Shown here: positions 2,441 through 58,003 of the stretch, in pieces | Position numbering within the stretch: the first letter of the stretch is position 1 | Layout of the letters: every line of letters starts with the position of its first letter | Assembly: GCA_965220415.1 (NCBI GenBank) | Contig: OZ244829.1 | Span: forward strand, 2,217,209 to 2,281,208 | Length of the DNA: 64,000 bases | Source of the DNA: Candidatus Poribacteria bacterium | GTDB taxonomy: Bacteria > Poribacteria > WGA-4E > JAJDTR01 | Reading direction: 5' to 3' | Position numbers and translations under genes: made by a program | The notes under the pieces: model-generated | The model's input: the letters and a program-made list of their open reading frames with translations, nothing else | Told to the model about the DNA's origin: nothing | Database searches by the model: none

Positions 2441-3214
2441 ATTACATATTCTTATCTTCCGCATTATCGATCGCCTAAAAGTTAAATTTCTCAATTGGCC
2501 GTATCCCGCATCATAATTGAAAGCATGCCATTATCCCTGACGGAAGAATTCTTTCAGCAAGCAACACTTACTAGTCAGAGTCCCTTTCCTCGATCCAGAG
2601 GATCGAAATGTCAATAGAACGCGACATGTCCAGAGTCCCGCGCTCCAGAGGAGCGCCATGTGGTGTGTTACTTCGTAAAAATGAAGTTGATGATGAAAGG
2701 GCAAAACAGGTCAATCAATCGGACTCAGGGTAGTACCTTGGTGATTTTTTCTCGTTTGTAAATATATACCCCAAGGTCTGCTATGTGACAATTCGAGATT
2801 ACACAAGTCTATTATGCGGAAGATGAGATATTTGGCGCCTTTAGCAATATTGTCGTTTATCTGCCGTAAAGGTAGCGCTAATGATTACAGTAATTTAGAG
2901 GAAAACCATCTGGCAAGGGAACTCTTCGAGACTTCGAAATTGGCCGACAGGAGTCATCAAGGCATAGCCAAACTGTTTGCCAACAGTTCGCCGCCCATCA
3001 AGAGATGCCGGGGCCAGCCATTGACTCAGGACGCGGAGCAATTCAACCAACAGTTGACGCCACACAGGGCTGCCATTGAAGGTGCAAAGTTTTTTTGGAT
3101 CGCCAATGACGGCTATTAAAGCAAGCAACATGATTATTATAATTGCCAAGATTTCTGTACCTACACAGGTCTATATCGGAAAATTATCTAATTCCGTACC
3201 AAGGAGGATACCCA

Positions 3215-3946
3215 ATGTTAGAAACTAGAGACCTAACCAAAGTCTATGACAACACAATTCGAGCTGTCAACGAATTGAACTTGAAGATCGAACGGGGAGA
3301 AATCTACGTCATACTCGGTGCGAATGGTGCTGGGAAAAGCACCACCATCTCCATGCTCCTGAATTTCATTGACCCAACCAGTGGCACGGCGTTAGTCAAT
3401 GATATTGAGATTCCAAAGTTTCCACTCGAAGCGAAGAAGCATCTCGCTTACGTATCGGAAAACGTGGAGTTGTATCGAAACTTTACCGCACGACAGAACC
3501 TTGAGTTTTTCACCAAGCTGGGAGGCAAAAAGAAAGTGACTCGCGATGAACTGGATGCGACACTTGCTCGTGTCGGGTTGCCGGAAGAATCATTTAAACG
3601 TCGGGTGAAAACCTTTTCCAAAGGGATGCGACAGCGATTGGGAATCGCGGTAGCCATCATGAAGGGCGCCGATGCGATACTGCTTGATGAACCCACCTCT
3701 GGACTAGACCCAAAGGGTGGGGCGGACTTCCTGAACCTTTTGCGCGAACTGAGGAGTGAAGGCAAAGCCATCTTCATGTCTACCCACGACATATTTCGTG
3801 CCAAGGAAATCGCTGATCGGCTTGGGATTCTTGTGAGTGGAAATCTGGTTCGCGAGCTATCCCGTCAAGAGATTGAAACCGAAGATCTGGAAGCCCTATA
3901 CCTGCGTTATGTGGCGGGGTACGAATCGGAAGAGGAAGTAGCATAA
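3215..3946 (+). CDS. ABC transporter ATP-binding protein (ABC-2 type, no fused permease)
   Basis: Walker A GANGAGKST, signature/Q-loop region, Walker B ILLDEPTSGLD and an H-loop are present. AGGAGG RBS lies 8 nt before the ATG at 3215 (the ORF track start at 3143 is an upstream extension). Confidence 0.85.
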   Translation: MLETRDLTKVYDNTIRAVNELNLKIERGEIYVILGANGAGKSTTISMLLNFIDPTSGTALVNDIEIPKFPLEAKKHLAYVSENVELYRNFTARQNLEFFTKLGGKKKVTRDELDATLARVGLPEESFKRRVKTFSKGMRQRLGIAVAIMKGADAILLDEPTSGLDPKGGADFLNLLRELRSEGKAIFMSTHDIFRAKEIADRLGILVSGNLVRELSRQEIETEDLEALYLRYVAGYESEEEVA

Positions 3947-4052: not shown

Positions 4053-6392
4053 ATGTTGTTAAAGGAGAAACTCTACGTGCGAAGTATATACCTCTTATTG
4101 ATACTCAGTTTGATGTTTCTATCGGGTCATGAGCCGCTCCGGTCACAAGTGGTGGACTCGCGAGATGCGTCGCAATCTGAAAAGGCGCGCACCAAAGATG
4201 AACAGTTGCGCCAGATTCAAATCGACAAAGCCAAACTGGACATGGAACTGGCGAAAAAACTGATGGAGAAAAAAGAGGATGAGCTTAAGAACCTAAAGAA
4301 TATGCTCCAAGAAGCGAATAACATCGTGACAGTTCTAGAGGTGAACCGTGCGGAGGAGGAATACGAGCTCGCAAAGGCAAACTATGAGAACGCGAAACTC
4401 GACTTGCAAAACACCGAACTTGATTCGCTGAAGGCGGCTTGGCACATCACCATCTTGGGGACCCGGCGATATGAAGCACGAGATGGCAGGGAGATGTTCT
4501 CTATCACGTTAAAAAACAGCTCGCTGCCGGTCAAATTGGAGGAGAGCTCTCGGGTTCTTGAAAGGGATGTTATCATCAGCGCGCAGATTGACGACATCTA
4601 TGTCTCAATTAAAGACCAAGGAGACTTCGGACGGCAAGGTGCTATCGTAGCCACTCCTTACGAGGTACGTATTCCATCGCTGAAGGAGGGTGAGGAGAAA
4701 ACACTGGAGTTTGAACTGGTCAAGGATGAAGTGCAGGACGTGGTCGTTAGCCTAAAATATCTTGATCTTGAGGAGGACCGCAATATCCATCTCAAGCAGG
4801 AGGAACCCTACATCTCGGTGCTGTCTGCGCGGCGGTACAAGGAGGGAGATCGAAGGAGGCTTGAGATTGTCCTCAAATACGGAGCGATTCTGGATCGTTC
4901 CGTGCCCCCATCCAAGCGGGACATTGACGATCTGCCTGCCGCTCCGGATGAAAGGGCGACATACGGTGCCGCACAAGAGATCAACAATGTCTACGTCTCA
5001 ATTAAGGATGAAAAGGATGCGATTATCGGCGTACCGTATGAGATTCGAATTCCGAACCTCAAGGATCAACAGTCGAAAACCCTCGATTTTGAACTCCGCC
5101 GCAACGTGGACAGCATTATCGTGAGCTTGAGGTATCTGGAACAGTCCTATCCCTACAAGATTCATCTTGAGGAGGACACCCGCCACATCTCAATCACCAG
5201 CGCCAAGAAGTATCGTGAGAACAATCAGATAATGGTCACTATCCGCTTGAAGAACACCTCGACGACTGAGTCCATGCCCGTTGACGCAACCGTGGAAGAA
5301 ATCGCCGCCGCCAACGAGATTCGTTCTATTTTTGTTTCCCTCAAAGACATTGACCCAACTAGTGGGACTCAATCGACGAATATTGCCCAACCTTATGAGC
5401 AGAAGATACCGCTGCTTGGCTACAATGACGAAGTCGACCTGACGTTCCAACTCCAGAAGGATGTGGACTCAATCATGATCGCATTGAAATACCCCGATCT
5501 TGTTGAGACGGACAATCGTTTGGTTTATTTACAGAAGGAGTCGGAGGAGGATGTGGTCAATGTCAGTTCGCTGCAGTTCTCCCAAGAGGGCAATCTCGGA
5601 AGTTCCGTTACCTATGATATGACACTGGATCGGTTAGCGGAGACGGAGAATACTTTCCAGTTGCGGATTATCAATCTTCTCAATAGCTTGACTTTTGAAT
5701 TTCAGGATACCGAGAGCCAATCGCGCGTGTCACAGGTGAAATTCACACAGGCGCAATCCAAACGAGATCTATCACTTTTCGTCCACGTGACCGAAGAGCT
5801 CGATGCCTCCTATCTTGACAGGACGCTGGAATTTTACGTTGCCGTCATTGATGCAAATGAGGCGCAACAACTCGGCGGCGTGAACAATCGTCTAGAGCTA
5901 TCCCCGGAGCAGATTAGCCAGATTAAGGGCGGTGTCGAGCGGTTTGAGCTTATCCCCAAAGGCGTGCCGGAGATTGAGCTATTTATCCCTAGTTCTTACC
6001 ATACCATCAAAATCGGGGAGCAGATAGACATGACATTGAAGTTACGAAATAGCGGCACGCGAGATTTAGCCGATATTCGGATGGGGGTCGATGTCTACAC
6101 CGGCTGGGACTATGTTGTTGAACCGGAAGTCGTCGCAAAGCTGGTACGGAATGAAGAGACCGAAGTACATCTGACGCTCATCCCATCTCCGGACGTGGGC
6201 GTCGGAGAGTACGAAGCGAAGGTCAATGCGGAGCTCACAGTTGATAATCGGCCCGTCGAGGCACGAGAAAAGACGGTCAGAGTTCACATCCAATCACAGC
6301 CTAGGCTCTCGGTAACAACGATTTTGTTTGGGGTGCTCGTTCTATTGGTCATTGGCATAGCGGTTGTCACCGTGCGGCTCAGTCGCCGATAG
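4053..6392 (+). CDS. Membrane-anchored coiled-coil protein with four ~115-aa internal repeats and C-terminal TM anchor; possible atypical membrane-fusion/adaptor protein
   Basis: N-terminal TM helix (SIYLLLILSLMFLSG), a long heptad-like coiled coil (residues ~40-130) as in HlyD-type adaptors, four repeats each containing [IV][FY]VS[IL]KD...PYE.[RK]IP.L..........[FL][EQ]L..(D/N)V(D/Q)S[IV].[IV][AS]L[KR]Y, a NEW3/CARDB-like beta region, and a C-terminal TM helix (TILFGVLVLLVIGIAVVTV). A GTG at 4077 with AAGGAG 7 nt upstream is an alternative start. Confidence 0.6.
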   Translation: MLLKEKLYVRSIYLLLILSLMFLSGHEPLRSQVVDSRDASQSEKARTKDEQLRQIQIDKAKLDMELAKKLMEKKEDELKNLKNMLQEANNIVTVLEVNRAEEEYELAKANYENAKLDLQNTELDSLKAAWHITILGTRRYEARDGREMFSITLKNSSLPVKLEESSRVLERDVIISAQIDDIYVSIKDQGDFGRQGAIVATPYEVRIPSLKEGEEKTLEFELVKDEVQDVVVSLKYLDLEEDRNIHLKQEEPYISVLSARRYKEGDRRRLEIVLKYGAILDRSVPPSKRDIDDLPAAPDERATYGAAQEINNVYVSIKDEKDAIIGVPYEIRIPNLKDQQSKTLDFELRRNVDSIIVSLRYLEQSYPYKIHLEEDTRHISITSAKKYRENNQIMVTIRLKNTSTTESMPVDATVEEIAAANEIRSIFVSLKDIDPTSGTQSTNIAQPYEQKIPLLGYNDEVDLTFQLQKDVDSIMIALKYPDLVETDNRLVYLQKESEEDVVNVSSLQFSQEGNLGSSVTYDMTLDRLAETENTFQLRIINLLNSLTFEFQDTESQSRVSQVKFTQAQSKRDLSLFVHVTEELDASYLDRTLEFYVAVIDANEAQQLGGVNNRLELSPEQISQIKGGVERFELIPKGVPEIELFIPSSYHTIKIGEQIDMTLKLRNSGTRDLADIRMGVDVYTGWDYVVEPEVVAKLVRNEETEVHLTLIPSPDVGVGEYEAKVNAELTVDNRPVEAREKTVRVHIQSQPRLSVTTILFGVLVLLVIGIAVVTVRLSRR

Positions 6393-10313: not shown

Positions 10314-11507
10314 ATGGCTCCTAGTGCGCTAAACGGTGTGAAAGTTCTGGATCTATCACGGCATTTGGCGGGTCCCTACTGCGCCATGATGCTTGGAGAT
10401 TTGGGTGCCGAAGTCATCAAGGTCGAGCGCCCAGGCACAGGTGACGAAACACGTCAGTGGCAACCGCCGTTTGCCGGCAGCGAGTCAGCGTATTACCTTT
10501 GCTGTAATCGTAACAAGAAAAGCCTCACACTCAATCTCAAACACGAGCGCGGTGTCGAAATCGCGCGAACGCTTGCCGAGAAGAGCGATGTGTTAATTGA
10601 GAACTTTCGTATTGGCGGGGCTAAGGAACTTGGTCTCGGCTATGACGAACTCAAGCAGGTAAATCCACGCTTAATCTACTGCTCAATCAGCGGTTTTGGT
10701 CACACGGGGCCTGATCGGGAATTGCCGGGCTACGACCTCATGATTCAAGCCAGAGGCGGTATCATGTCCATCACCGGCGAGCGGAATGGCACGCCCACGA
10801 AAATTGGCGTTGCCATCGCCGATGTCGCCACGGCGTTGTTTGCCTGTAACGCTATTCTCGCGGCGTTGTTCGTACGCGAACGTACGGGGGAAGGACAGCA
10901 TCTTGATACCGCACTACTTGACTCCCAGATTGCGCTGCTGGCGAACGTTGGCAGCAACTACCTCTGCTCGGGTGAAGTGCCTCAACGTTGGGGAAACGCG
11001 CACTCCGGAATTGTACCCTACCAAGCCTTCAAGGCGGCTGATGATTACCTCGTGCTGGCTATCGGAAATGATCGTCAGTGGCAACGGTTTTGTAAAGCAG
11101 CCGGTGCTGAACGTTTAGGGAATGATGAACGATTTGCTACAAACTCAAAACGAGTCGCAAACCGTGACGCTTTAATCCCGTCACTAGAGAATCTATTTCA
11201 GGGCCGAACTGTCGCCGACTGGCTGCAAATCTGCGGAGATGCCGATGTGCCTGCGGGGCCCGTGAACACACTTGATGCGGTCTTTGCAGATCCACAGGCA
11301 CTGGCACGAGGTATGTTGGTAGAGATGCCCCATCCGACAGCCCACACAATGCGGTTGGCGGGATCGCCGCTCAACCTCTCGGCAACGCCGGTGCAAATGC
11401 GTCTCCCGCCACCACTGCTCGGAGAACACACAGACGAGATTCTCGCAAGTGCACTGGGATTCGATGAATCCACCATCGCCAATCTCCGACAGGTTGGCGC
11501 CGTCTGA
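10314..11507 (+). CDS. CoA-transferase family III (CaiB/BaiF-type) protein
   Basis: GVKVLDLSRHLAGPYCAMMLGDLGAEVIKVERPG N-terminal signature and the conserved Asp region (GYDLMIQARGGIMSITG). ATG at 10314 follows GGAGGCGG (the track start at 10263 is an upstream extension). Confidence 0.85.
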   Translation: MAPSALNGVKVLDLSRHLAGPYCAMMLGDLGAEVIKVERPGTGDETRQWQPPFAGSESAYYLCCNRNKKSLTLNLKHERGVEIARTLAEKSDVLIENFRIGGAKELGLGYDELKQVNPRLIYCSISGFGHTGPDRELPGYDLMIQARGGIMSITGERNGTPTKIGVAIADVATALFACNAILAALFVRERTGEGQHLDTALLDSQIALLANVGSNYLCSGEVPQRWGNAHSGIVPYQAFKAADDYLVLAIGNDRQWQRFCKAAGAERLGNDERFATNSKRVANRDALIPSLENLFQGRTVADWLQICGDADVPAGPVNTLDAVFADPQALARGMLVEMPHPTAHTMRLAGSPLNLSATPVQMRLPPPLLGEHTDEILASALGFDESTIANLRQVGAV

Positions 11508-13056
11508 GGAGGGAAGGATTAGAGCATTGTACGAGGCGAAATCTCACATCACATGTTGCACCTGCGGTGCTTTTCCTCCGGTATCACCCCTTCTACTTTT
11601 CTGCTTTCTCCTCTTAAGCAGTTGCGCAAAACCCGTCACGATTGATGTTTCTGAATCACGAGGACAGAGCGACCCATTCCAGCGGTTGCAACAAGAAATC
11701 GAAACGAATCTGTATGATCCGCTGCTTGCTCCTTCGAATGTCGGCATAAAGGTCGTTTCGGTAACAACGGGTGAAGTTCTCTATGAAGCCGGCGCCGACA
11801 AGTTATATCATCCCGCCTCCACTATGAAACTGCTTACCTCGGCGACGGCACTTGTGAAGCTAAAACCAAACTATCGCTTCCACACAACGCTCTATGCCGA
11901 AGACATTGAAGGGGTTCGCGTCCGAGGGAATCTCTACCTCAAGGGGAGAGGAGACCCTCTACTTGCCGTTGAAGATTTGGTAGAGATGGTTGAAACGCTT
12001 TTTCATTCCGGGGTCAAAGAGATTGACGGTGATATTGTCGTCGATGACACCCATTTTGATGACGTCCCCAAGGGTAAGGGCTGGATGTGGGACGACGGTC
12101 CGATTGGCGGGTATTATTCACATCAGAGCGCGTTGACAATTAATCACAACGGCGTCACGGTTACCTTAGCGCCCGGCACTGAGGTGGGAGAACCGGTCCG
12201 CGTAACGCTTAATCCGCCGACGGAATACCTGAAAGTTGTCAACAATGCGACAACCGTCGCTGCTTCAGAGAACACAACCTTACACATCGAACGCCAATCA
12301 AAACCCGTTCCAGCCAATGTGTTGACAATTCGTGGCTCTATGCCAGTCAGCCAAGAGAAGGTGCGCCGACAAGTGGACATCATCAATCCCGCTCTGTTTT
12401 GCGGAACACTGTTAAAGGAGGCGCTTGACCGGAGGGGCATCCCGGTGCAAGGGGTAATCCGGCAAGGGGTGGTTGCGGATGACGTGACCGAAATTGGAGT
12501 CCATACCTCGTTGCCGCTCTCTCTCATCGTCCGGAGGATGAATAAACGGAGCGATAATCTGATTGCCGAGTTGCTGTTGAAGACGATTGGTGCAGAAATG
12601 ATTGGACCACCCGGTACGTCACAGAAAGGATTGCGAGTAATTAGCGAGTTTCTGGGTGAAGGCGGGATGGCTAATGCTCAGTCTACGCTGGCGGATGGGT
12701 CGGGCGTCTCGCGCTACAATCTTTTATCTGCTTCAATGCTCACGAACTTACTGGTGTACGTGTTCCAAGATTTTTCGGTGATGCCGGAGTATCTCACGTC
12801 GCTTCCGGTTGCCGGTGTCGATGGAACGCTTTCATGGCGGATGAAGGAATCGGAAGCCGAAGGGGTTCTGCGTGCCAAAACCGGTACAATGCGGGGGATA
12901 ACAACGCTTGCCGGGTACGCAATGACGGCGGACGGTGAAATCCTCGCGTTTGCTATGTTGATGAGCAACTATGTAGGTTCGTCCAATCCTCGCCGCGCGT
13001 TACAGGACAAAATCGGGAACGCCCTTACACGATTCAGCCGTATGCGCAGGGAATAA
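11449..13056 (+). CDS. dacB: D-alanyl-D-alanine carboxypeptidase/endopeptidase, PBP4 family (peptidase S13), lipoprotein
   Basis: SxxK (ASTMK), SxN (KRSDN) and KTG (AKTGTMRG) motifs, and a lipobox LLLSSC. The start is uncertain: the ATG at 11449 overlaps the upstream gene by 59 bp, and an in-frame TTG at ~11527 just before the signal peptide is plausible. Confidence 0.85.
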   Translation: MHWDSMNPPSPISDRLAPSEEGRIRALYEAKSHITCCTCGAFPPVSPLLLFCFLLLSSCAKPVTIDVSESRGQSDPFQRLQQEIETNLYDPLLAPSNVGIKVVSVTTGEVLYEAGADKLYHPASTMKLLTSATALVKLKPNYRFHTTLYAEDIEGVRVRGNLYLKGRGDPLLAVEDLVEMVETLFHSGVKEIDGDIVVDDTHFDDVPKGKGWMWDDGPIGGYYSHQSALTINHNGVTVTLAPGTEVGEPVRVTLNPPTEYLKVVNNATTVAASENTTLHIERQSKPVPANVLTIRGSMPVSQEKVRRQVDIINPALFCGTLLKEALDRRGIPVQGVIRQGVVADDVTEIGVHTSLPLSLIVRRMNKRSDNLIAELLLKTIGAEMIGPPGTSQKGLRVISEFLGEGGMANAQSTLADGSGVSRYNLLSASMLTNLLVYVFQDFSVMPEYLTSLPVAGVDGTLSWRMKESEAEGVLRAKTGTMRGITTLAGYAMTADGEILAFAMLMSNYVGSSNPRRALQDKIGNALTRFSRMRRE

Positions 13057-13062
13057 CGATTT

Positions 13063-13644
13063 TTATTCTTTGCACCTCTCTATTTGCGTTGTTCGGTTAA
13101 CCGGGTTTTCCTCGTCCAACGCCCAGTTCCGCGGGTTGTTTTTGATATAGGTACGGATATCGTCCAATGATTCATCGTCACGGATGACATGGTCGTAAAA
13201 GGAGCGCTGCCACAATTTTGCATTAAATGGTTTCCAACCCTTTGTTTTGACGCCTTCGATATACAACCTGGTTGTCAACGATTTGAATCGGTGTACAACC
13301 TCAGACAAGGAAAATGTAGGGACAACCCCCCGTGGTTGTCCGTTTGGGTTGAAACGCGCTTCGTTTGGGACGGCACGGGGGCCGTCCCCTACAATGATAA
13401 TTATTCCGTGCAAATGATTAGGCATTATCTGGAATTGGTCTGTCCGTATACCGTGATAAAATATCGATAATTCATGCCAGGTTTTTGCCACCATTTTTCC
13501 TGCGGCATTTGGAATCATCTGACCATCAACGATTTTACCAAATAATTCCTTTCGATTTTGCGTGCAGATTGTCACAAAATAATATCCCGGCTGAGAATAA
13601 TCGTAATGCTGTAGCCGATTCGGTTTTCGGATTTGGTTATTCAT
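13063..13644 (-). CDS. IS200/IS605-like Y1 (HuH) transposase of the REP-associated (RAYT) type
   Basis: YYFVTICT N-terminal strand, HuH motif MPNHLHGII, and C-terminal WQRSFYDHVIRD...YIKNNP. Annotated from the internal ATG (MNNQIRKPNRLQHYDY...); a TTG at 13668 extends it by 8 aa. A REP-like hairpin module is translated in-frame between the HuH motif and the C-terminal half. Confidence 0.8.
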   Translation of the reverse strand: MNNQIRKPNRLQHYDYSQPGYYFVTICTQNRKELFGKIVDGQMIPNAAGKMVAKTWHELSIFYHGIRTDQFQIMPNHLHGIIIIVGDGPRAVPNEARFNPNGQPRGVVPTFSLSEVVHRFKSLTTRLYIEGVKTKGWKPFNAKLWQRSFYDHVIRDDESLDDIRTYIKNNPRNWALDEENPVNRTTQIERCKE

Positions 13645-14128
13645 AATCCGTGCGGATTGTAGGGACAACCCCCCTGTGGTTGTCCGTTGGGGTTAATACG
13701 TGCTTCATTCGGGACAGCACGGGGACCGTCCCCTACAATGACAATTATTCCGTGCAAATGGTCACAAAATAATATCCTGCATGGGGATAATCGTAATACT
13801 GTAACCGATTCGGTTTTCGGGTTGGTTATTCATAATCCGTGCGGATTGTAGGGACAACCCCCTGTGGTTGTCCGTTGGGGGTTGATACGTGCTTCATTCG
13901 GGACGGCACGGGGACCGTCCCCTACAATGACAACTATTCCGTGCAAATGATCACAAAATAGTATCCCGCATGGGGACAATCGTAACACTGTAGCCGATTC
14001 GGTTTTCCGGTTTGGTTATTCATAATTCGTGCGGATTGTAGGGACAACCCCCCGTGGTTGTCCGTTGGGGTTGATACGTACTTCATTCGGGACGGCACGG
14101 GGACCGTCCCCTACATTTCCTAAACCCC
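13315..14128. repeat. Tandem array (~3 units of ~190 bp plus a half unit) of RAYT 5'-end + GTAG-led paired GC-rich hairpins (REP-like)
   Basis: Units start at 13580, 13771 and 13961 and end at ~14125. Each carries TGTAGGGACAACCCCC(C)GTGGTTGTCCG (GTAG + GGACAACC/GGTTGTCC hairpin) and GGGACGGCACGGGGACCGTCCCC (second hairpin), followed by a copy of the first ~100 nt of the transposase ORF. Extra-genic copies carry a 1-bp deletion that frameshifts the N-terminal peptide. An additional hairpin module sits at 13315-13417 inside the gene. Confidence 0.8.
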
Positions 14129-15235
14129 TCATATCAATCGGTCATAAACTGCTTGTACCTGCTCCACGTGCTTGGTGATGCTGAAATGGCGCTCGGCGTG
14201 CGCTCGCGCCGCTCGTCCCATCTGCCTACAAAGCGATGGATTCCGTATCATTTGCACGATTTTAGCTGTGATGCCTTCAATAGGAAATTGTGGAATCACC
14301 CACCCTGTATTACCATCGTCAATCATGTCTATCGCGCTTCCAACCGGCGTGCCAATGACCGGTTTGCCAGCCGCCATGGCTTCCGGGATGACACTTCCCG
14401 CCGAGAGAGTTACGAGAAGATCCAGCCCGTGCATCACTGCTGGCATGTCCTCGCGATGACCTGTGCAGGTAACATATTCCGTAAGATTCAATTCAGAGAT
14501 TAACCGGCGCAGTTCCCGCTCGTACGCAAGGTGCTCGGAGTTAGATTGCGTTCCGCCAATAATCAGAAAACTGACATCTTTGCACGCTTTAAGGACATGC
14601 GATGCTATCTTGACAAATTCCTTCTGACGCTTAAATGGTTCAATCCGTCCCACTATGCCTATCACGAATCGCCGCAGTGTAAATTCTTGCCGGAGGGTAT
14701 TCGGTTTAACTCCTATTGATTCAAACGCGTCCAAATCCACACAGTTCACAATGACTTCAATCTTGTTGGGCGAAATACCAGCCTCAAGAAATGGAGGCGT
14801 GTATCGCTTCGAAATTGAGATAATAGCGGACATGTTGTGGAAGCCGTACTTTGTCACCTGATCGAGGCGAATAGGAGCCTTAACATGAGAGATGATCGGA
14901 ATCCTACACTGACGGGCTACGCGAAGTGCGTAGGGATTGTGCCACGAATCGGAAGCATGAATCAGTCGAATCTCCTGTTCTGTAGCAAGTTGAACGAACC
15001 GAGATGCCGCAGCATAGCGGTGAAGTATGTTTTTCCACTTTCGCCACCCGGGTAGTGTATGGATAACGGTATCGATTCCTGCCTCACGCAGTTGCTTCGG
15101 GAATACGCCATCATCGGGACAGACTACAATTGGCTGATAGCGGCTCCAATCCAGATTGGTAACGAGATAGAACAGTTGGCGTTCAGCGCCGCCGAAGATT
15201 GAACCGCTCAGGTATAAGATGCGTGTCATAATCAC
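14129..15235 (-). CDS. Glycosyltransferase family 4 (GT-B, group 1)
   Basis: 368 aa; N-terminal acceptor domain and a C-terminal EX7E-like region typical of GT4. No signal peptide. Confidence 0.8.
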   Translation of the reverse strand: MIMTRILYLSGSIFGGAERQLFYLVTNLDWSRYQPIVVCPDDGVFPKQLREAGIDTVIHTLPGWRKWKNILHRYAAASRFVQLATEQEIRLIHASDSWHNPYALRVARQCRIPIISHVKAPIRLDQVTKYGFHNMSAIISISKRYTPPFLEAGISPNKIEVIVNCVDLDAFESIGVKPNTLRQEFTLRRFVIGIVGRIEPFKRQKEFVKIASHVLKACKDVSFLIIGGTQSNSEHLAYERELRRLISELNLTEYVTCTGHREDMPAVMHGLDLLVTLSAGSVIPEAMAAGKPVIGTPVGSAIDMIDDGNTGWVIPQFPIEGITAKIVQMIRNPSLCRQMGRAARAHAERHFSITKHVEQVQAVYDRLI

Positions 15236-57300: not shown

Positions 57301-58003
57301 CTATATCCACTGTCCCACGAAGTTCTACCTTAAACATCGCCTCGGTCTACCGGACACAAATGTCCTCGTCCCGGAGGAAAACCATTCGAATCTGCAAGAT
57401 TTCGCAATTCGCAGCGTACTTGGTCAAATTAGAACACATGCGGATCGCAATCGCGATCTGGGCAAGTTAATCAACACTGCCGTGAAATCCGTGTCAGACG
57501 AGTTCGCTGAAAATGGTGTGGCTCTCCACGTGAAACACTTCTTGGATTCCGAGTTAGGGAAGTTGGCGTTAGCCGCCAACGAAAGCTGCTGCGAACAAGA
57601 GATTCACGCGCTGTTCGATAATCACGTTATCTATGGTGTAGTAGACCGTCTCTTCAAAGGCTCGGATGGGCTATGGCAAATTATCGACTATGAAACCAAT
57701 CAATTCGACTCGTCAGAGATTGAAACGTGGATAGACTTCTACCGTCCGAAGGTCGAATTGTGCACGCTGCTGGTTCATCGGCTTTACCCGGAACAGCAGG
57801 TGATACCGGCAACAATTTTCTTTACCTCGATCGCCGAAGCTCATTCGATGAACCTGACCCTGGACAACTTAGAACATCTGGAACAGCAGTGGATTGAGAG
57901 AATCGAAGTCATTCAGACGGGGAAATTCGAGAAAAACACGGGGCACTGTCCGCATTGCCCCTACTTCGTAGAAGAGCAGTGCCTGTTCCCGGATCCGGAA
58001 TAG
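54380..58003 (+). CDS. UvrD/Rep-family helicase fused to C-terminal RecB/AddB/Cas4-type PD-(D/E)xK nuclease with 4-Cys Fe-S cluster
   Basis: Walker A GAGSGKTE, helicase motifs (DEYQDTN, VGDRKQSIYGFRGAD, TSHAAKGLEFPVV, YVAATRARDRL). The C-terminal domain has YIHCP...C and terminal GHCPHCPYFVEEQC cysteines plus a D-x(n)-E-x-K core. Confidence 0.85.
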   Translation: MQYTPNQKKAHDLNRHIGVTAGAGSGKTEVLANRYLKILLESDVSVRGVVAITFTEKAAAELKVRVLKKIDEKTASSAGNDRLLAKLEAIREEFTAAPISTIHEFCARILRQYPVKGIGSGFDILQGVDQWLVLRDTVDSTLRSIANRPRGDETREKLANLLRMFGRRKLEGILNKLLNNRDATNNLLKSLYRESDDQIMAAWKEFLGAELGRSLREQFPVDRWVKSLNAALGIATGKNASKVRDLTKQLQNTGNTIASLPILSEISLLILTRAGDIAKQNFIGRRIDTTAVEADIKFLTEAAQHFQSFPSLTEDDAFLIRVTYPLLAIYDLIHEQYTNYKLIQGALDFEDLQIEVKNLLGDDKIRSRLARQYSHIMIDEYQDTNGLQYDIIKPLVSGFASGNLFIVGDRKQSIYGFRGADVRTFRQTLTGMSAYQSGNTDDFVWETETLQAEKSEKQGDIHLPEAFRFLRNLVGFVNLVFGRIMGDGNLNEFEVAYEPLIMGRKNEAPGDVELIIGRELGAQENELIASRIRHLIQSNELVRDRDTEEPRPMRYSDIAILIRSRTRLPDIESALIKARIPYCVTSGIGFYQRQEIYDIWNYLQFLEDPTNDVALIGILRGPFFSISDVELFEISQHSNQDSFWEGVKNYAAESGTSATDGDNHSQVQDSRGQFEAKASDFLLCACETLEKHLKICGRLPIATFIRRIINDTGMVGTLSVGLSGGQRWANFEKLLAMARDFDKSEFSELSDFIERLNLLIEEEDREGQARIESSEDVVQVMTSHAAKGLEFPVVILPYLSRKFKFDQDPFIDEDIGIGFSPAKPDKNYEGSNPSIAKVMKKRQEQKTVAEEKRLFYVAATRARDRLILSGSVGLSGEPPRNCWFNWMLNALELTEAPNESRIEFPVTIETFTENSRTPISFNLPIRLFHSTEEMNLPSETPTLSKPPADFPEIYIEPLESTSAGENLAVPQLLSYIHCPTKFYLKHRLGLPDTNVLVPEENHSNLQDFAIRSVLGQIRTHADRNRDLGKLINTAVKSVSDEFAENGVALHVKHFLDSELGKLALAANESCCEQEIHALFDNHVIYGVVDRLFKGSDGLWQIIDYETNQFDSSEIETWIDFYRPKVELCTLLVHRLYPEQQVIPATIFFTSIAEAHSMNLTLDNLEHLEQQWIERIEVIQTGKFEKNTGHCPHCPYFVEEQCLFPDPE

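What the first reader, a model, noticed from the sequence alone, without database searches (positions are those of the whole stretch)
13063..14128. RAYT-type IS200-like transposase embedded in a tandem array of its own 5' end plus GTAG-led hairpins; one hairpin module translated in-frame inside the gene
Directly visible: about 3 tandem units of ~190 bp (13580, 13771, 13961 to ~14125). Each is composed of (a) a copy of the first ~100 nt of the transposase ORF and (b) a module with GTAG followed by a perfect GGACAACC/GGTTGTCC hairpin and a second GGGACGG/CCGTCCC hairpin. The same hairpin module also sits at 13315-13417 inside the ORF, read in-frame as ...IIIVGDGPRAVPNEARFNPNGQPRGVVPTFSL... between the HuH motif (HLHGII) and the WQRSFYDHVIRD block. 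This makes the HuH-to-C-terminal spacing about 20 aa longer than I recall for E. coli-type RAYTs. The upstream copies carry a 1-bp deletion in the N-terminal coding segment, so they are decaying duplicates. A REP-like element that has entered its cognate transposase gene without breaking the frame, together with head-to-tail amplification of the gene 5' end, is not a standard RAYT/REP arrangement. It could bear on how REP arrays are generated.
Basis: partly seen in the sequence, partly recalled or inferred. Interest (0 to 1): 0.75.

Follow-up and report, generated by a model that had tools for sequence, protein, structure and literature searches.

The report
RAYT gene with in-frame REPs, amplified
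This is a domesticated transposase gene of a published type that carries its own palindromic repeat pair in frame; the repeats have caused a local, decaying tandem duplication of the gene's front end, which is real but mechanistically ordinary.

Summary
Window 13561-14115 is a 189-bp tandem repeat (2.9 copies, 92% match). A pair of inverted GTAG-footed hairpins (a REPIN) occurs four times: three in the array and one at 13316-13392, read in frame inside a 193-aa HuH/Tyr gene (13063-13644, minus strand).

An in-frame REP between the HuH and Tyr motifs is the published hallmark of TnpA_REP subclass 2.4, which equals RAYT group 4 (Quentin et al. 2018). This protein fits that signature: NHLH, WQ, YIKNNP, 193 aa, HuH-to-Tyr 87 aa. 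Among 73 relatives from many phyla, 41 have a perfect 7-bp hairpin at the same place, and 44 of 49 are in the same frame. So it is an old family trait, not a recent entry.

Each array unit is an internally deleted mini-copy of the gene's 5' half: leader, 74 nt of coding sequence, 24 nt of HuH codons, and a REPIN. Syntenic Candidatus Poribacteria relatives carry one, two or three (this window) upstream REPINs, or a 5'-deleted gene. The array is therefore real, lineage-specific and decaying.

The best explanation is unequal exchange between the upstream and intragenic REPINs, then a 154-bp deletion, then amplification. Interest is low to moderate.

The parts
13063..13644 (-). RAYT / TnpA_REP gene, subclass 2.4 type, 193 aa, stop codon included. 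Key residues: HuH at H77/H79, W145-Q146, R155, catalytic Y166, N170.
   Evidence: ORF list. Pfam Y1_Tnp 34 bits. Invariant residues in alignment A1. Profile hit to 4ER8. AF2 core confident, pTM 0.75.
13316..13392 (-). Intragenic REPIN. REP-a is GTAGGGGACGGCCCCCGTGCCGTCCC; the inverted REP-b is GGACAACCACGGGGGGTTGTCCCTAC. It is read in frame as residues 84-109.
   Evidence: Folds as two 8-bp hairpins, -20.4 kcal/mol, z -2.8. 100% identical in the sister strain L001. Synonymous sites in the arms are conserved. The encoded loop has pLDDT below 50.
13393..13416 (-). Segment H: codons for HLHGIIII, directly 5' of the intragenic REPIN. This is the source of the 24-nt segment copied into each array unit.
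13417..13570 (-). Segment B: 154 nt of the gene (about codons 26-76), present only in the intact gene and deleted from the array units.
13571..13658 (-). Segment A of the real gene: 14-nt leader AATCCGCACGGATT plus the first 74 nt of the coding sequence.
13659..13760 (-). Array REPIN R3 (13659-13736) with its copy of H (13737-13760). One stem mismatch in REP-a.
13761..13847 (-). Pseudo-copy A2 of the leader plus gene 5' end. It has a 1-bp deletion and is 90% identical to the gene copy.
13848..13949 (-). Array REPIN R2 (13848-13925) with its copy of H (13926-13949).
13950..14037 (-). Pseudo-copy A1 of the leader plus gene 5' end. It is 86% identical to the gene copy and has no indel.
14038..14114 (-). 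Outermost REPIN R1, 14 nt after the glycosyltransferase stop codon. It has no H flank and corresponds in position to the single upstream REPIN of relative L207.
14129..15235 (-). Upstream neighbour on the same strand: a glycosyltransferase gene. It serves as the synteny anchor.
11449..13056 (+). Convergent neighbour: a Peptidase_S13 (DacB-like) gene ending 6 nt from the RAYT stop codon. There is no downstream REP here.

Best explanation
The locus is a vertically inherited RAYT (TnpA_REP subclass 2.4 / group 4) gene of a Candidatus Poribacteria-like bacterium. As is typical for that subclass, an inverted pair of GTAG-footed REP hairpins (a REPIN) lies in frame between the HuH strand and helix alpha-C, where it encodes a disordered surface loop.

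The ancestral locus had one further REPIN just upstream of the start codon, in the same orientation. These steps are inferred, not shown:
1. Unequal exchange (homologous recombination or replication slippage) between the upstream and intragenic REPINs duplicated the interval between them: leader, 5' coding half and HuH codons.
2. The non-functional copy then lost 154 nt.
3. The resulting 189-bp unit, now flanked by direct REPIN repeats, was amplified further.

The upstream units are non-coding, fast-decaying remnants. The intragenic REPIN and the gene stay under constraint.
For: Family membership. NHLH / WQ / YIKNNP, 193 aa and a HuH-to-Tyr distance of 87 aa match the published signature for subclass 2.4: NH[IFV]H / WQ / YIxNNP, median 194 aa, median 88 aa. 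There is a profile hit to 4ER8, with the extra residues lying between the HuH strand and Trp.

In-frame REP as a family trait.
- 63 of 76 relatives have a GTAG hairpin between HuH and WQR.
- 41 of 53 with 'VG' after HuH have a perfect 7-bp stem, against 0 of 365 control windows. These use 20 different stem sequences.
- 44 of 49 are in the same frame.
- In 28 of 42 loci the intragenic REP matches the flanking REPs within 2 of 22 nt.

The loop is tolerated. pLDDT is below 50 for most of the REPIN-encoded loop (residues 88-108; the 10-residue blocks 91-110 average 45-46), inside a confident core.

The array is real and variable. An independent assembly, L001 (97% aa identity, same synteny), has 1.9 units. 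Units differ from each other by 4-14%.

Series of states at the same glycosyltransferase-RAYT-DacB locus.
- L207: one upstream REPIN.
- L201 and L202: one decayed upstream REPIN.
- L001: two.
- Window: three.
- L076: 5' half deleted at the REPIN.

Decay versus constraint. Between the window and L001 the intragenic REPIN is 100% identical and the true 5' end 99%, while the upstream REPINs are 87-94%. Synonymous sites in the REP arms are identical at 16/16, 17/17 and 16/17 codons, against 62-65% elsewhere in the gene (Fisher p 0.0006-0.008).

Age. The H copies in the array keep the ancestral GTC codon, where the gene now has ATC.

Other REP-associated partial duplications in the family: L202, L040 and L031.

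Precedent. REPs are reported as join points of tandem duplications (Shyamala et al. 1990). I know this from memory; the title appears in the text of 7 held papers, but I did not read the paper.
Against: - The predicted first intermediate, a duplicated unit that still contains the 154-nt segment B, was not found in any locus.
- The 154-nt deletion joint (GTGAC|CATTTGCACGG) has only imperfect microhomology (AATC...TGCACG) and does not fit a simple slippage product exactly.
- Whether the array REPIN bodies derive from the upstream or the intragenic copy cannot be resolved: they are 88-92% identical to both. The crossover point is therefore unknown.
- Nothing here separates host recombination from RAYT-catalysed cleavage and rejoining.
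- The NCBIfam REP_Tyr_transpos score is 59 bits, below its cut-off of 80.
Confidence: 0.7

Rival explanations
1. The RAYT itself made the array. The HuH/Tyr enzyme cuts single-stranded DNA at its REPs during replication and joins the cut at the intragenic REPIN to the cut at the upstream REPIN. The array and the HuH-codon flank on each unit are then footprints of enzyme-driven REPIN multiplication.
For: - Each unit keeps a fixed 24-nt flank 5' of GTAG, taken from inside the gene.
- Extragenic REPINs next to related genes also carry 12-13 nt of that flank, in L203 and L208.
- In L031 the upstream REP cluster is an 86% copy of the intragenic cluster.
- Papers in the library report that E. coli TnpA_REP recognises and cleaves single-stranded REP DNA (abstract of PMC8266576; text quoted from PMC3733652). 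That it also rejoins the DNA is from memory.
- Catalytic residues are intact.
Against: - The A|H joint created by the 154-nt deletion is not at a REP.
- Dispersed REPINs of this type in other organisms have variable 5' flanks, so a 24-nt flank is not part of the mobile unit in general.
- Sharing of the flank between intragenic and flanking REPs is rare across the family: only 2 of 42 loci share at least 6 of 8 nt.
- The same product is expected from ordinary recombination between 77-nt direct repeats.
- There are no dispersed copies in the other 63 kb of the window.
Confidence: 0.2
2. One reading: a REP-like element recently inserted into its cognate transposase gene without breaking the frame, giving an unusual, non-standard arrangement.
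For: - The intragenic module is 88-91% identical to the extragenic modules.
- The encoded segment is an unstructured loop absent from E. coli TnpA_REP.
Against: - The same segment sits at the same site and in the same frame in relatives at 40-97% identity from Poribacteria, Latescibacterota, Chloroflexota, Nitrospirota, Cyanobacteria and others.
- It is present in all syntenic orthologues.
- It is published as the defining feature of subclass 2.4.
Confidence: 0.04
3. The array is an assembly artefact: a collapsed or expanded repeat in a metagenome assembly.
For: Short-read assemblers can misjudge the copy number of 189-bp repeats. The window and L001 differ by exactly one unit.
Against: - The units are 4-14% diverged from one another, each with its own substitutions and indels.
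- An independent assembly from another sample shows the same architecture and the same junctions.
Confidence: 0.04
4. The array is functional. For example, it could be a set of decoy or regulatory binding sites for the RAYT, a terminator or insulator between the glycosyltransferase and the RAYT, or repeated promoter-like elements driving the gene.
For: - Each REP-b end plus its flank forms CGGACA-18-TACAAT, 11 nt before an ATG.
- The REPINs lie between two co-oriented genes.
Against: - The upstream copies evolve much faster than the gene and lose stem pairs.
- Syntenic relatives do without the array or have only a decayed REPIN.
- Promoter-like matches are only weakly above the shuffle level: 6 found against 2.4 +/- 1.6 expected.
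Confidence: 0.05

Closest known systems
TnpA_REP subclass 2.4 (Quentin, Siguier, Chandler, Fichant 2018, BMC Genomics 19:475), equal to RAYT group 4 of Bertels et al. 2017
   Same: - HuH/W/Y signature, length and HuH-to-Tyr distance.
- A variable insertion between beta3 and alpha-C made of in-frame REPs.
- Canonical GTAG REPs with a GGG/CCC stem base flanking the gene.
- Scattered distribution over many phyla.
   Different: - The tandem amplification of a REPIN-bounded, internally deleted copy of the gene's 5' half is not mentioned in that paper; a text search for 'tandem', 'array' and 'duplicat' found nothing relevant.
[quoted passage not shown] Here the two outer REP arms are conserved at both protein and nucleotide level within the clade.
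E. coli TnpA_REP (YafM, PDB 4ER8) with REP/BIME
   Same: - Y1 HuH fold.
- The W-Q...R residues reported to recognise GTAG.
- A GTAG tetranucleotide at the hairpin foot.
- A single-copy, domesticated gene flanked by REPs.
   Different: - E. coli belongs to subclass 2.2: DHLH, YIHYNP, bulged long REPs and a C-terminal tail.
- It has no REP inside the gene.
- There are about 33 fewer residues between the HuH strand and Trp.
REPIN/RAYT systems of Pseudomonas (Bertels and Rainey 2011)
   Same: - Two inverted REPs separated by a short spacer form the repeat unit.
- The RAYT is single-copy, vertically inherited and flanked by its REPINs.
   Different: - Those RAYTs are group 3 (subclass 2.5), with hundreds of dispersed extragenic REPINs and none inside the gene.
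- Here no dispersed copy was seen in the 64 kb available.
REP-mediated tandem chromosomal duplications (Shyamala, Schneider, Ames 1990, recalled from memory; title found in the text of held papers)
   Same: Direct-repeat REPs serve as join points of tandem duplications that can then amplify.
   Different: Those were kilobase-scale duplications selected in the laboratory. Here it is a 189-bp natural array whose join partner lies inside the RAYT coding sequence.
Intragenic REPs and Rickettsia palindromic elements (Di Nocera et al. 2013, PMC3733652)
   Same: Palindromic repeats are translated in frame as 20-30 extra residues in tolerated loops.
   Different: Those are scattered insertions in unrelated genes. 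Here the host gene is the REP's presumed own enzyme, and the site is conserved across the family.
IS200/IS605 TnpA insertion sequences
   Same: Same Pfam domain and the same use of subterminal hairpins.
   Different: - The Tyr motif is YIKNNP, not Y...Q.
- NF033573 scores 26 bits, below its cut-off of 55.
- It is single-copy at a syntenic site, with no tnpB.

Membership tests
TnpA_REP subclass 2.4 / RAYT group 4 | HuH motif NH[IFV]H | tested here: met
   The window has NHLH (N76-H77-L78-H79). Leu is not in the published consensus set, but it is the hydrophobic 'u'. Close relatives have NHVH, NHIH or NHLH.
TnpA_REP subclass 2.4 / RAYT group 4 | W motif WQ and Tyr motif YIxNNP | tested here: met
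   W145-Q146 and Y166-I-K-N-N-P171. W145, Q146, Y166, I167 and N170 are invariant in A1.
TnpA_REP subclass 2.4 / RAYT group 4 | Median length about 194 aa, HuH-to-Tyr distance about 88 aa, no C-terminal tail domain | tested here: met
   193 aa; H79 to Y166 is 87 aa; the protein ends 22 residues after NNP.
TnpA_REP subclass 2.4 / RAYT group 4 | Variable insertion between beta3 (HuH) and alpha-C, made of REP sequences that keep the reading frame | tested here: met
   The REPIN at 13316-13392 encodes residues 84-109. It lies between strand 77-84 and helix 113-135 of the model. The same is seen in 63 of 76 relatives.
TnpA_REP subclass 2.4 / RAYT group 4 | Canonical GT[AG]G-footed REPs within 1 kb of the gene | tested here: met
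   Three REPINs lie within 470 nt upstream.
TnpA_REP subclass 2.4 / RAYT group 4 | 8-aa insertion at the end of alpha-B | not tested
   I made no structural alignment to the published model.
RAYT (functional definition) | Curated NCBIfam model REP_Tyr_transpos NF047646 at its cut-off | tested here: not met
   59.1 bits against a cut-off of 80, split into two stretches by the insertion. I take this as a divergent subclass relative to that model, not as evidence against RAYT identity.
RAYT (functional definition) | Binds and cleaves its REP as single-stranded DNA at or near GTAG | not testable with these tools
   This needs biochemistry. The catalytic residues and the residues reported to read GTAG are present.
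RAYT (functional definition) | Associated with a dispersed, multi-copy REP/REPIN population in the same genome | tested here: inconclusive
   No copy lies outside the locus in the 64-kb window. The same REP-b type occurs in 118 metagenome stretches; of the 80 fetched and inspected, many are intergenic REPINs in other organisms. The whole source genome was not available.
RAYT (functional definition) | Single-copy and vertically inherited (domesticated), not an IS | tested here: met
   There is one gene in the window. The same glycosyltransferase-RAYT-DacB synteny is seen in L001, L201, L202, L207 and L076.
REPIN (Bertels and Rainey) | Two REPs in inverted orientation separated by a short spacer, able to fold as a unit | tested here: met
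   REP-a and inverted REP-b, 77-78 nt in all, with GTAGGG...CCCTAC ends.
IS200/IS605 TnpA | Y...Q Tyr motif, NF033573 at its cut-off, multi-copy element with subterminal hairpins at both ends | tested here: not met
   YIKNNP; 26.3 bits against a cut-off of 55; no downstream hairpin, with only a 6-nt gap to the convergent gene; single-copy and syntenic.

The most novel reading that the evidence does not exclude
The intragenic REPIN may be the selectively protected 'master copy' of the REPIN lineage. Being in frame inside the RAYT gene shields it from decay and ties repeat and enzyme together in inheritance. Extragenic REPINs and REPIN arrays next to these genes would then be seeded from it. The HuH-codon flank on the array units here (and in L203, L208) and the upstream copy of the intragenic cluster in L031 would be fossils of that copying. 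On this reading the window's array is a snapshot of how a tandem REPIN cluster is born, possibly with the RAYT itself doing the cutting and joining.
Probability: 0.15. Interest if true: 0.6.

Novelty: new member of a known kind. Interest (0 to 1): 0.3.

Why it matters
The most striking part, a transposase gene that carries its own target repeat in frame, was described in 2018 as the hallmark of one RAYT subclass. It is not a discovery here.

The locus does add a clean natural series at one syntenic site in Candidatus Poribacteria-like genomes: one upstream REPIN, then two, then three (this window), or a deletion. The series shows REPINs acting as recombination handles that duplicate and delete pieces of the RAYT gene itself.

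It also shows that the intragenic REPIN is conserved at synonymous sites while the extragenic copies a few hundred bases away decay. That contrast bears modestly on an open question: how REPINs and RAYTs stay associated over long periods, and how tandem REP clusters arise.

Tried and rejected
- Exact-sequence look-up of the window protein in the assembly collection: not on record.
- Single-sequence PDB search: it missed 4ER8 and gave only spurious weak hits, ArtA (4z9c) at E 0.037 on the REPIN-encoded stretch. The profile search worked.
- Rfam scan of 12500-14700: only a sub-threshold miRNA hairpin hit (24 bits against 102), which I dismissed.
- Locating the crossover inside the REPIN by diagnostic sites. 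I first thought the array REPIN bodies were 'upstream-type'. After adding L207 they turned out to be 88-92% identical to both the upstream and the intragenic ancestors, so I dropped the claim.
- Sharing of the 8-nt 5' flank between intragenic and flanking REPs across 42 family loci: not general, with only L031 and L062 sharing at least 6 of 8 nt. A fixed 5' flank is therefore not a family-wide property.
- Search for the predicted intermediate, a duplicated unit still holding segment B, in 80 GTDB loci and 9 close-relative loci: not found.
- Promoter and terminator scan: matches are only weakly above shuffles, so I did not use them as evidence.
- Literature search for a description of RAYT 5'-end arrays: nothing found.
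- Genome-wide REP census of the source organism: not possible.
Full report
**1. What is in the sequence**

The minus strand of 13063-13644 encodes a 193-aa protein (ATG at 13644).
- It hits Pfam Y1_Tnp (PF01797) at 34 bits, above the cut-off of 23, but only over its C-terminal half.
- It hits the NCBIfam model REP_Tyr_transpos at 59 bits, below the cut-off of 80, in two stretches.

Tandem Repeats Finder reports one array, 13561-14115, with period 189, 2.9 copies and 92% matches.

Two related GTAG-footed hairpins each occur only at this locus in the 64-kb window:
- GTAGGGGACGG-YCCCCGTG-CCGTCCC ('REP-a')
- GTAGGGACAACC-N6-GGTTGTCC ('REP-b')

They always occur as an inverted pair of 77-78 nt with GTAGGG...CCCTAC ends. 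The four pairs lie at 13316-13392, 13659-13736, 13848-13925 and 14038-14114, and none appeared in 100 shuffles. A generic scan for GT[AG]G plus a stem of at least 7 bp finds nothing else above the shuffle level; one hit with a mismatch at 57940 lies within the range seen in shuffles. The module is therefore an inverted REP pair, that is, a REPIN.

The copy at 13316-13392 is read in frame as V84-T109 (VGDGPRAVPNEARFNPNGQPRGVVPT). As single-stranded DNA it folds into two 8-bp hairpins, at -20.4 kcal/mol and z -2.8.

**2. Anatomy of the array**

In coding orientation the region reads as follows:
- glycosyltransferase stop codon, then 14 nt
- R1
- [leader 14 nt + A1 (first 74 nt of the coding sequence) + H2 (24 nt, the HLHGIIVI codons) + R2]
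- [leader + A2 + H3 + R3]
- leader + A3 (the real start) + B (154 nt, 13417-13570) + Hi + Ri + the rest of the gene

Each 189-bp unit is therefore a copy of the gene's 5' half from which segment B has been deleted. It is not a 5' end joined to an independent hairpin module.
- The deletion shifts the frame.
- A2 also has a 1-bp deletion; A1 does not.
- The deletion joint (GTGAC|CATTTGCACGG) lies next to an imperfect direct repeat (AATCTGCACG / AATCATTTGCACG).

**3. What the gene is**

A 38-sequence alignment of relatives at 51-97% identity (listed order) shows invariant H77, H79, W145, Q146, R147, R155, Y166, I167 and N170.

A profile of that alignment hits E. coli TnpA_REP (PDB 4ER8) at E 8.6e-5. 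The HuH strands and the WQ...IR..NP block align, with about 33 extra residues in between.

An AlphaFold model (pTM 0.75) has a confident core. Between strand 77-84 and helix 113-135 the chain has no secondary structure, and most of it has pLDDT below 50 (residues 88-108; blocks 91-110 average 45-46). This is the REPIN-encoded stretch.

**4. The in-frame REP is already known**

Quentin, Siguier, Chandler and Fichant (2018; PMC6006769) divide the TnpA_Y1 superfamily into subclasses. They state that 'a unique feature of subclass 2.4 is that ... [quoted passage not shown]

| Feature | Subclass 2.4, their Table 1 and text | Window protein |
|---|---|---|
| HuH motif | NH[IFV]H | NHLH |
| W motif | WQ | WQ |
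| Tyr motif | YIxNNP | YIKNNP |
| Length | median 194 aa | 193 aa |
| HuH-to-Tyr distance | median 88 aa | 87 aa |
| Insertion beta3:alpha-C | variable | REPIN, residues 84-109 |

Subclass 2.4 equals RAYT group 4 of Bertels et al. 2017. The window gene is a typical member.

**5. Independent confirmation on new data**

I collected 80 family loci from GTDB species genomes spanning many phyla.
- Of 76 loci with a recognisable gene (73 from the GTDB set, plus L001, L002 and the window), 63 carry at least one GTAG hairpin between HuH and WQR.
- In a test that does not pre-select hairpins, 53 of 73 have 'VG' within 25 residues after HuH. Of these, 41 have a perfect 7-bp stem straight after the GTAG and 6 more have 6 of 7 pairs. 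In 365 control windows from the same genes, none reached 7 of 7 and 11 reached 6 of 7.
- The 41 perfect stems use 20 different arm sequences and encode 38 different nonapeptides.
- The first GTAG is in frame (GTA GGG = Val-Gly) in 44 of 49 loci, most often 6 codons after the second His of the HuH motif.
- In 28 of 42 loci that also have flanking REPs, the intragenic REP matches a flanking one within 2 of 22 nt.

The hairpin is thus kept at one site and in one frame across the family, while its sequence tracks each genome's own REP type. That is not what a recent, accidental entry would look like.

**6. The array is real, young and decaying**

Several loci share the glycosyltransferase-RAYT-DacB synteny (L207 keeps the three core genes but has an ISL3 transposase fragment upstream of the glycosyltransferase). 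A member of the P0004 (L201) protein cluster is annotated as Candidatus Poribacteria in NCBI, and the L076 record is titled Candidatus Poribacteria.

| Locus | State of the locus |
|---|---|
| L207 | One upstream REPIN; no array; RAYT has a premature stop |
| L201, L202 | One decayed upstream REPIN; intragenic REPIN still intact or nearly so |
| L001 (97% aa identity, independent assembly) | 1.9 units |
| Window | 2.9 units |
| L076 | 5' half of the gene deleted, leaving a REP-a remnant fused to ...VHRFK |

Further points:
- Between the window and L001, the intragenic REPIN is 100% identical and the true 5' end 99%. The upstream REPINs are only 87-94% identical, and some have lost stem pairs.
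- The H copies in the array keep GTC where the gene in both strains now has ATC. The array therefore predates the split of the two strains.
- The units differ from each other by 4-14%, which rules out a simple assembly artefact.

**7. Constraint on the intragenic REPIN**

I compared the window gene codon by codon with the syntenic L201 and L202 and with L203.
- Codons in the two REP arms that encode the same amino acid are identical in 16/16, 17/17 and 16/17 cases.
- Elsewhere in the gene the figure is 62-65% (Fisher p 0.0017, 0.0006 and 0.008).
- The spacer between the arms is at or below the gene-average nucleotide identity in all three comparisons (58-79% against 76-80%).
- More distant relatives (L002, L204) do not show the effect, and in L002 the stems have begun to decay.

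Within the close clade, the hairpin arms are therefore held at the nucleotide level, either by selection on the DNA or RNA structure or by gene conversion from other REPs. These data cannot separate the two.

**8. Mechanism (inferred)**

The simplest history has four steps:
- The ancestor had an upstream REPIN, the leader, segments A, B and H, the intragenic REPIN, and the rest of the gene. L207 still looks like this.
- Unequal exchange between the two co-oriented REPINs (about 330 bp apart and about 90% identical) duplicated the interval.
- The upstream, unselected copy lost the 154-nt segment B.
- The 189-bp unit, now bounded by direct REPIN repeats, changed copy number by further unequal exchange, giving two versus three upstream REPINs in sister strains.

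The 5'-deleted gene in L076 is the kind of product the reciprocal event would give.

REP-associated partial duplications recur elsewhere in the family:
- L202: 216 nt of the gene 3' end plus a double-foot REP, 84% identical.
- L040: 108 nt of the gene 3' end in tandem, 95% identical.
- L031: a 158-nt upstream copy of the intragenic REP cluster, 86% identical.

REPs as join points of tandem duplications are an old observation (Shyamala et al. 1990). I recall this from memory and found the title in the text of seven held papers, but did not read the paper itself.

What is not shown:
- The B-containing intermediate was not found.
- The crossover point cannot be placed.
- Nothing here distinguishes host recombination from cutting and rejoining by the RAYT itself.

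The enzyme-driven rival keeps some weight, for two reasons. Extragenic REPINs in L203 and L208 also carry 12-13 nt of the HuH-codon flank, and the catalytic residues are intact. Against it, flank sharing is not general in the family, and dispersed REPINs of this type in other organisms have unrelated flanks.

**9. Is there a dispersed REP population?**

There is none in the other 63 kb of this window. The REP-b pattern occurs in 118 metagenome stretches; of the 80 fetched and inspected, many show intergenic REPINs with a GGACAGGC...GCCTGTCCCTAC partner. The REP type is therefore a genuine dispersed family elsewhere. The source genome itself could not be surveyed.

**10. Verdict**

The headline interpretation, a REP that has entered its own transposase gene in a non-standard arrangement, describes a real feature. 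However, that feature is the published hallmark of RAYT subclass 2.4 and is ancient in the family.

The tandem amplification of the gene's 5' half is real, was not described in the papers I read, and is specific to this strain lineage. It is best explained by ordinary recombination between REPINs, and its products are decaying.

The most useful residue is twofold: the natural series of rearrangement states at one syntenic locus, and the contrast between a nucleotide-conserved intragenic REPIN and rapidly decaying extragenic copies.

- Novelty: a new member of a known kind.
- Interest: 0.3.

Noticed in passing
L207:2480-3140: A syntenic orthologue (glycosyltransferase-RAYT-DacB) with a single upstream REPIN and no array. 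Its RAYT has an in-frame TAA just before WQR, so it is a pseudogene. An ISL3-family DDE transposase fragment lies upstream of the glycosyltransferase.
   Followed up: partly
L076:2915-3250: A Candidatus Poribacteria genome with the same synteny. The 5' half of the RAYT gene is missing, and a REP-a remnant (CCCGTGCCATCCCAATGAAGCGCATACCAACC) is joined directly to the ...VHRFKTLTT... C-terminal half.
   Followed up: partly
L202:3475-3998: 216 nt comprising the RAYT 3' end plus a 'double-foot' REP (GTAGGGGACGCAGATCTGCGTCCCCTAC) is repeated about 309 nt downstream at 84% identity. The part of the second copy before WQR resembles a different RAYT type.
   Followed up: partly
L040:3490-3709: A Dehalococcoidia relative with a direct tandem duplication of the last 108 nt of the RAYT gene (95% identity) next to a REP.
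   Followed up: no
L031:12-169 versus 537-704: In a Gammaproteobacteria MAG, the REP cluster just upstream of the RAYT start is an 86% copy (169 aligned columns) of the four-REP cluster inside the gene, spacers included.
   Followed up: partly
L003:2496-2975 and 3253-3345; L204:2171-2961: Latescibacterota-type relatives have single-REP tandem arrays (37-bp period, 4-6 copies) and 89-bp REPIN arrays (about 6 copies) upstream. L003 also has an in-gene tandem expansion of half a REP, read as KGPCAVP x3.
   Followed up: no
P0023, P0024, P0028 (protein sequences): In-frame expansions of short REP-derived repeats inside the insertion (VGTGP x2-3, and VPAT/GPAT runs), giving proteins of 213-242 aa.
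   Followed up: no
L203:2940-3062; L208:2150-2310 and 2895-3015: Extragenic REPINs beside related RAYT genes carry 12-13 nt of the HuH-codon flank (for example ATCATCGTCTTT|GTAGGGG) that precedes the intragenic REPIN. In L208 the same flanked module is found both upstream and downstream of the gene.
   Followed up: partly
window 14035-14064, 13845-13874 (minus strand): The end of REP-b plus its flank forms a sigma-70-like CGGACA-18-TACAAT, 11 nt before each ATG copy. If used, it would give a nearly leaderless transcript. The scan as a whole is only weakly above the shuffle level.
   Followed up: no
window 57940-57964 (minus strand): An isolated GTAG-footed hairpin with one mismatch (GTAGGGGCAATGCGGACAGTGCCCC). 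It is unrelated in sequence to the REPIN here and lies within the range seen in shuffled sequence.
   Followed up: partly
L002:4933-5060 versus 5325-5400: In a 74%-identical relative at a different genomic site, the flanking REPs are of another type (GGACAGCC/GGCTGTCC). The intragenic REPIN has lost stem pairs (VGDGPRTIP...GQPQGILPT). The intragenic hairpins can therefore decay while the loop is retained.
   Followed up: partly
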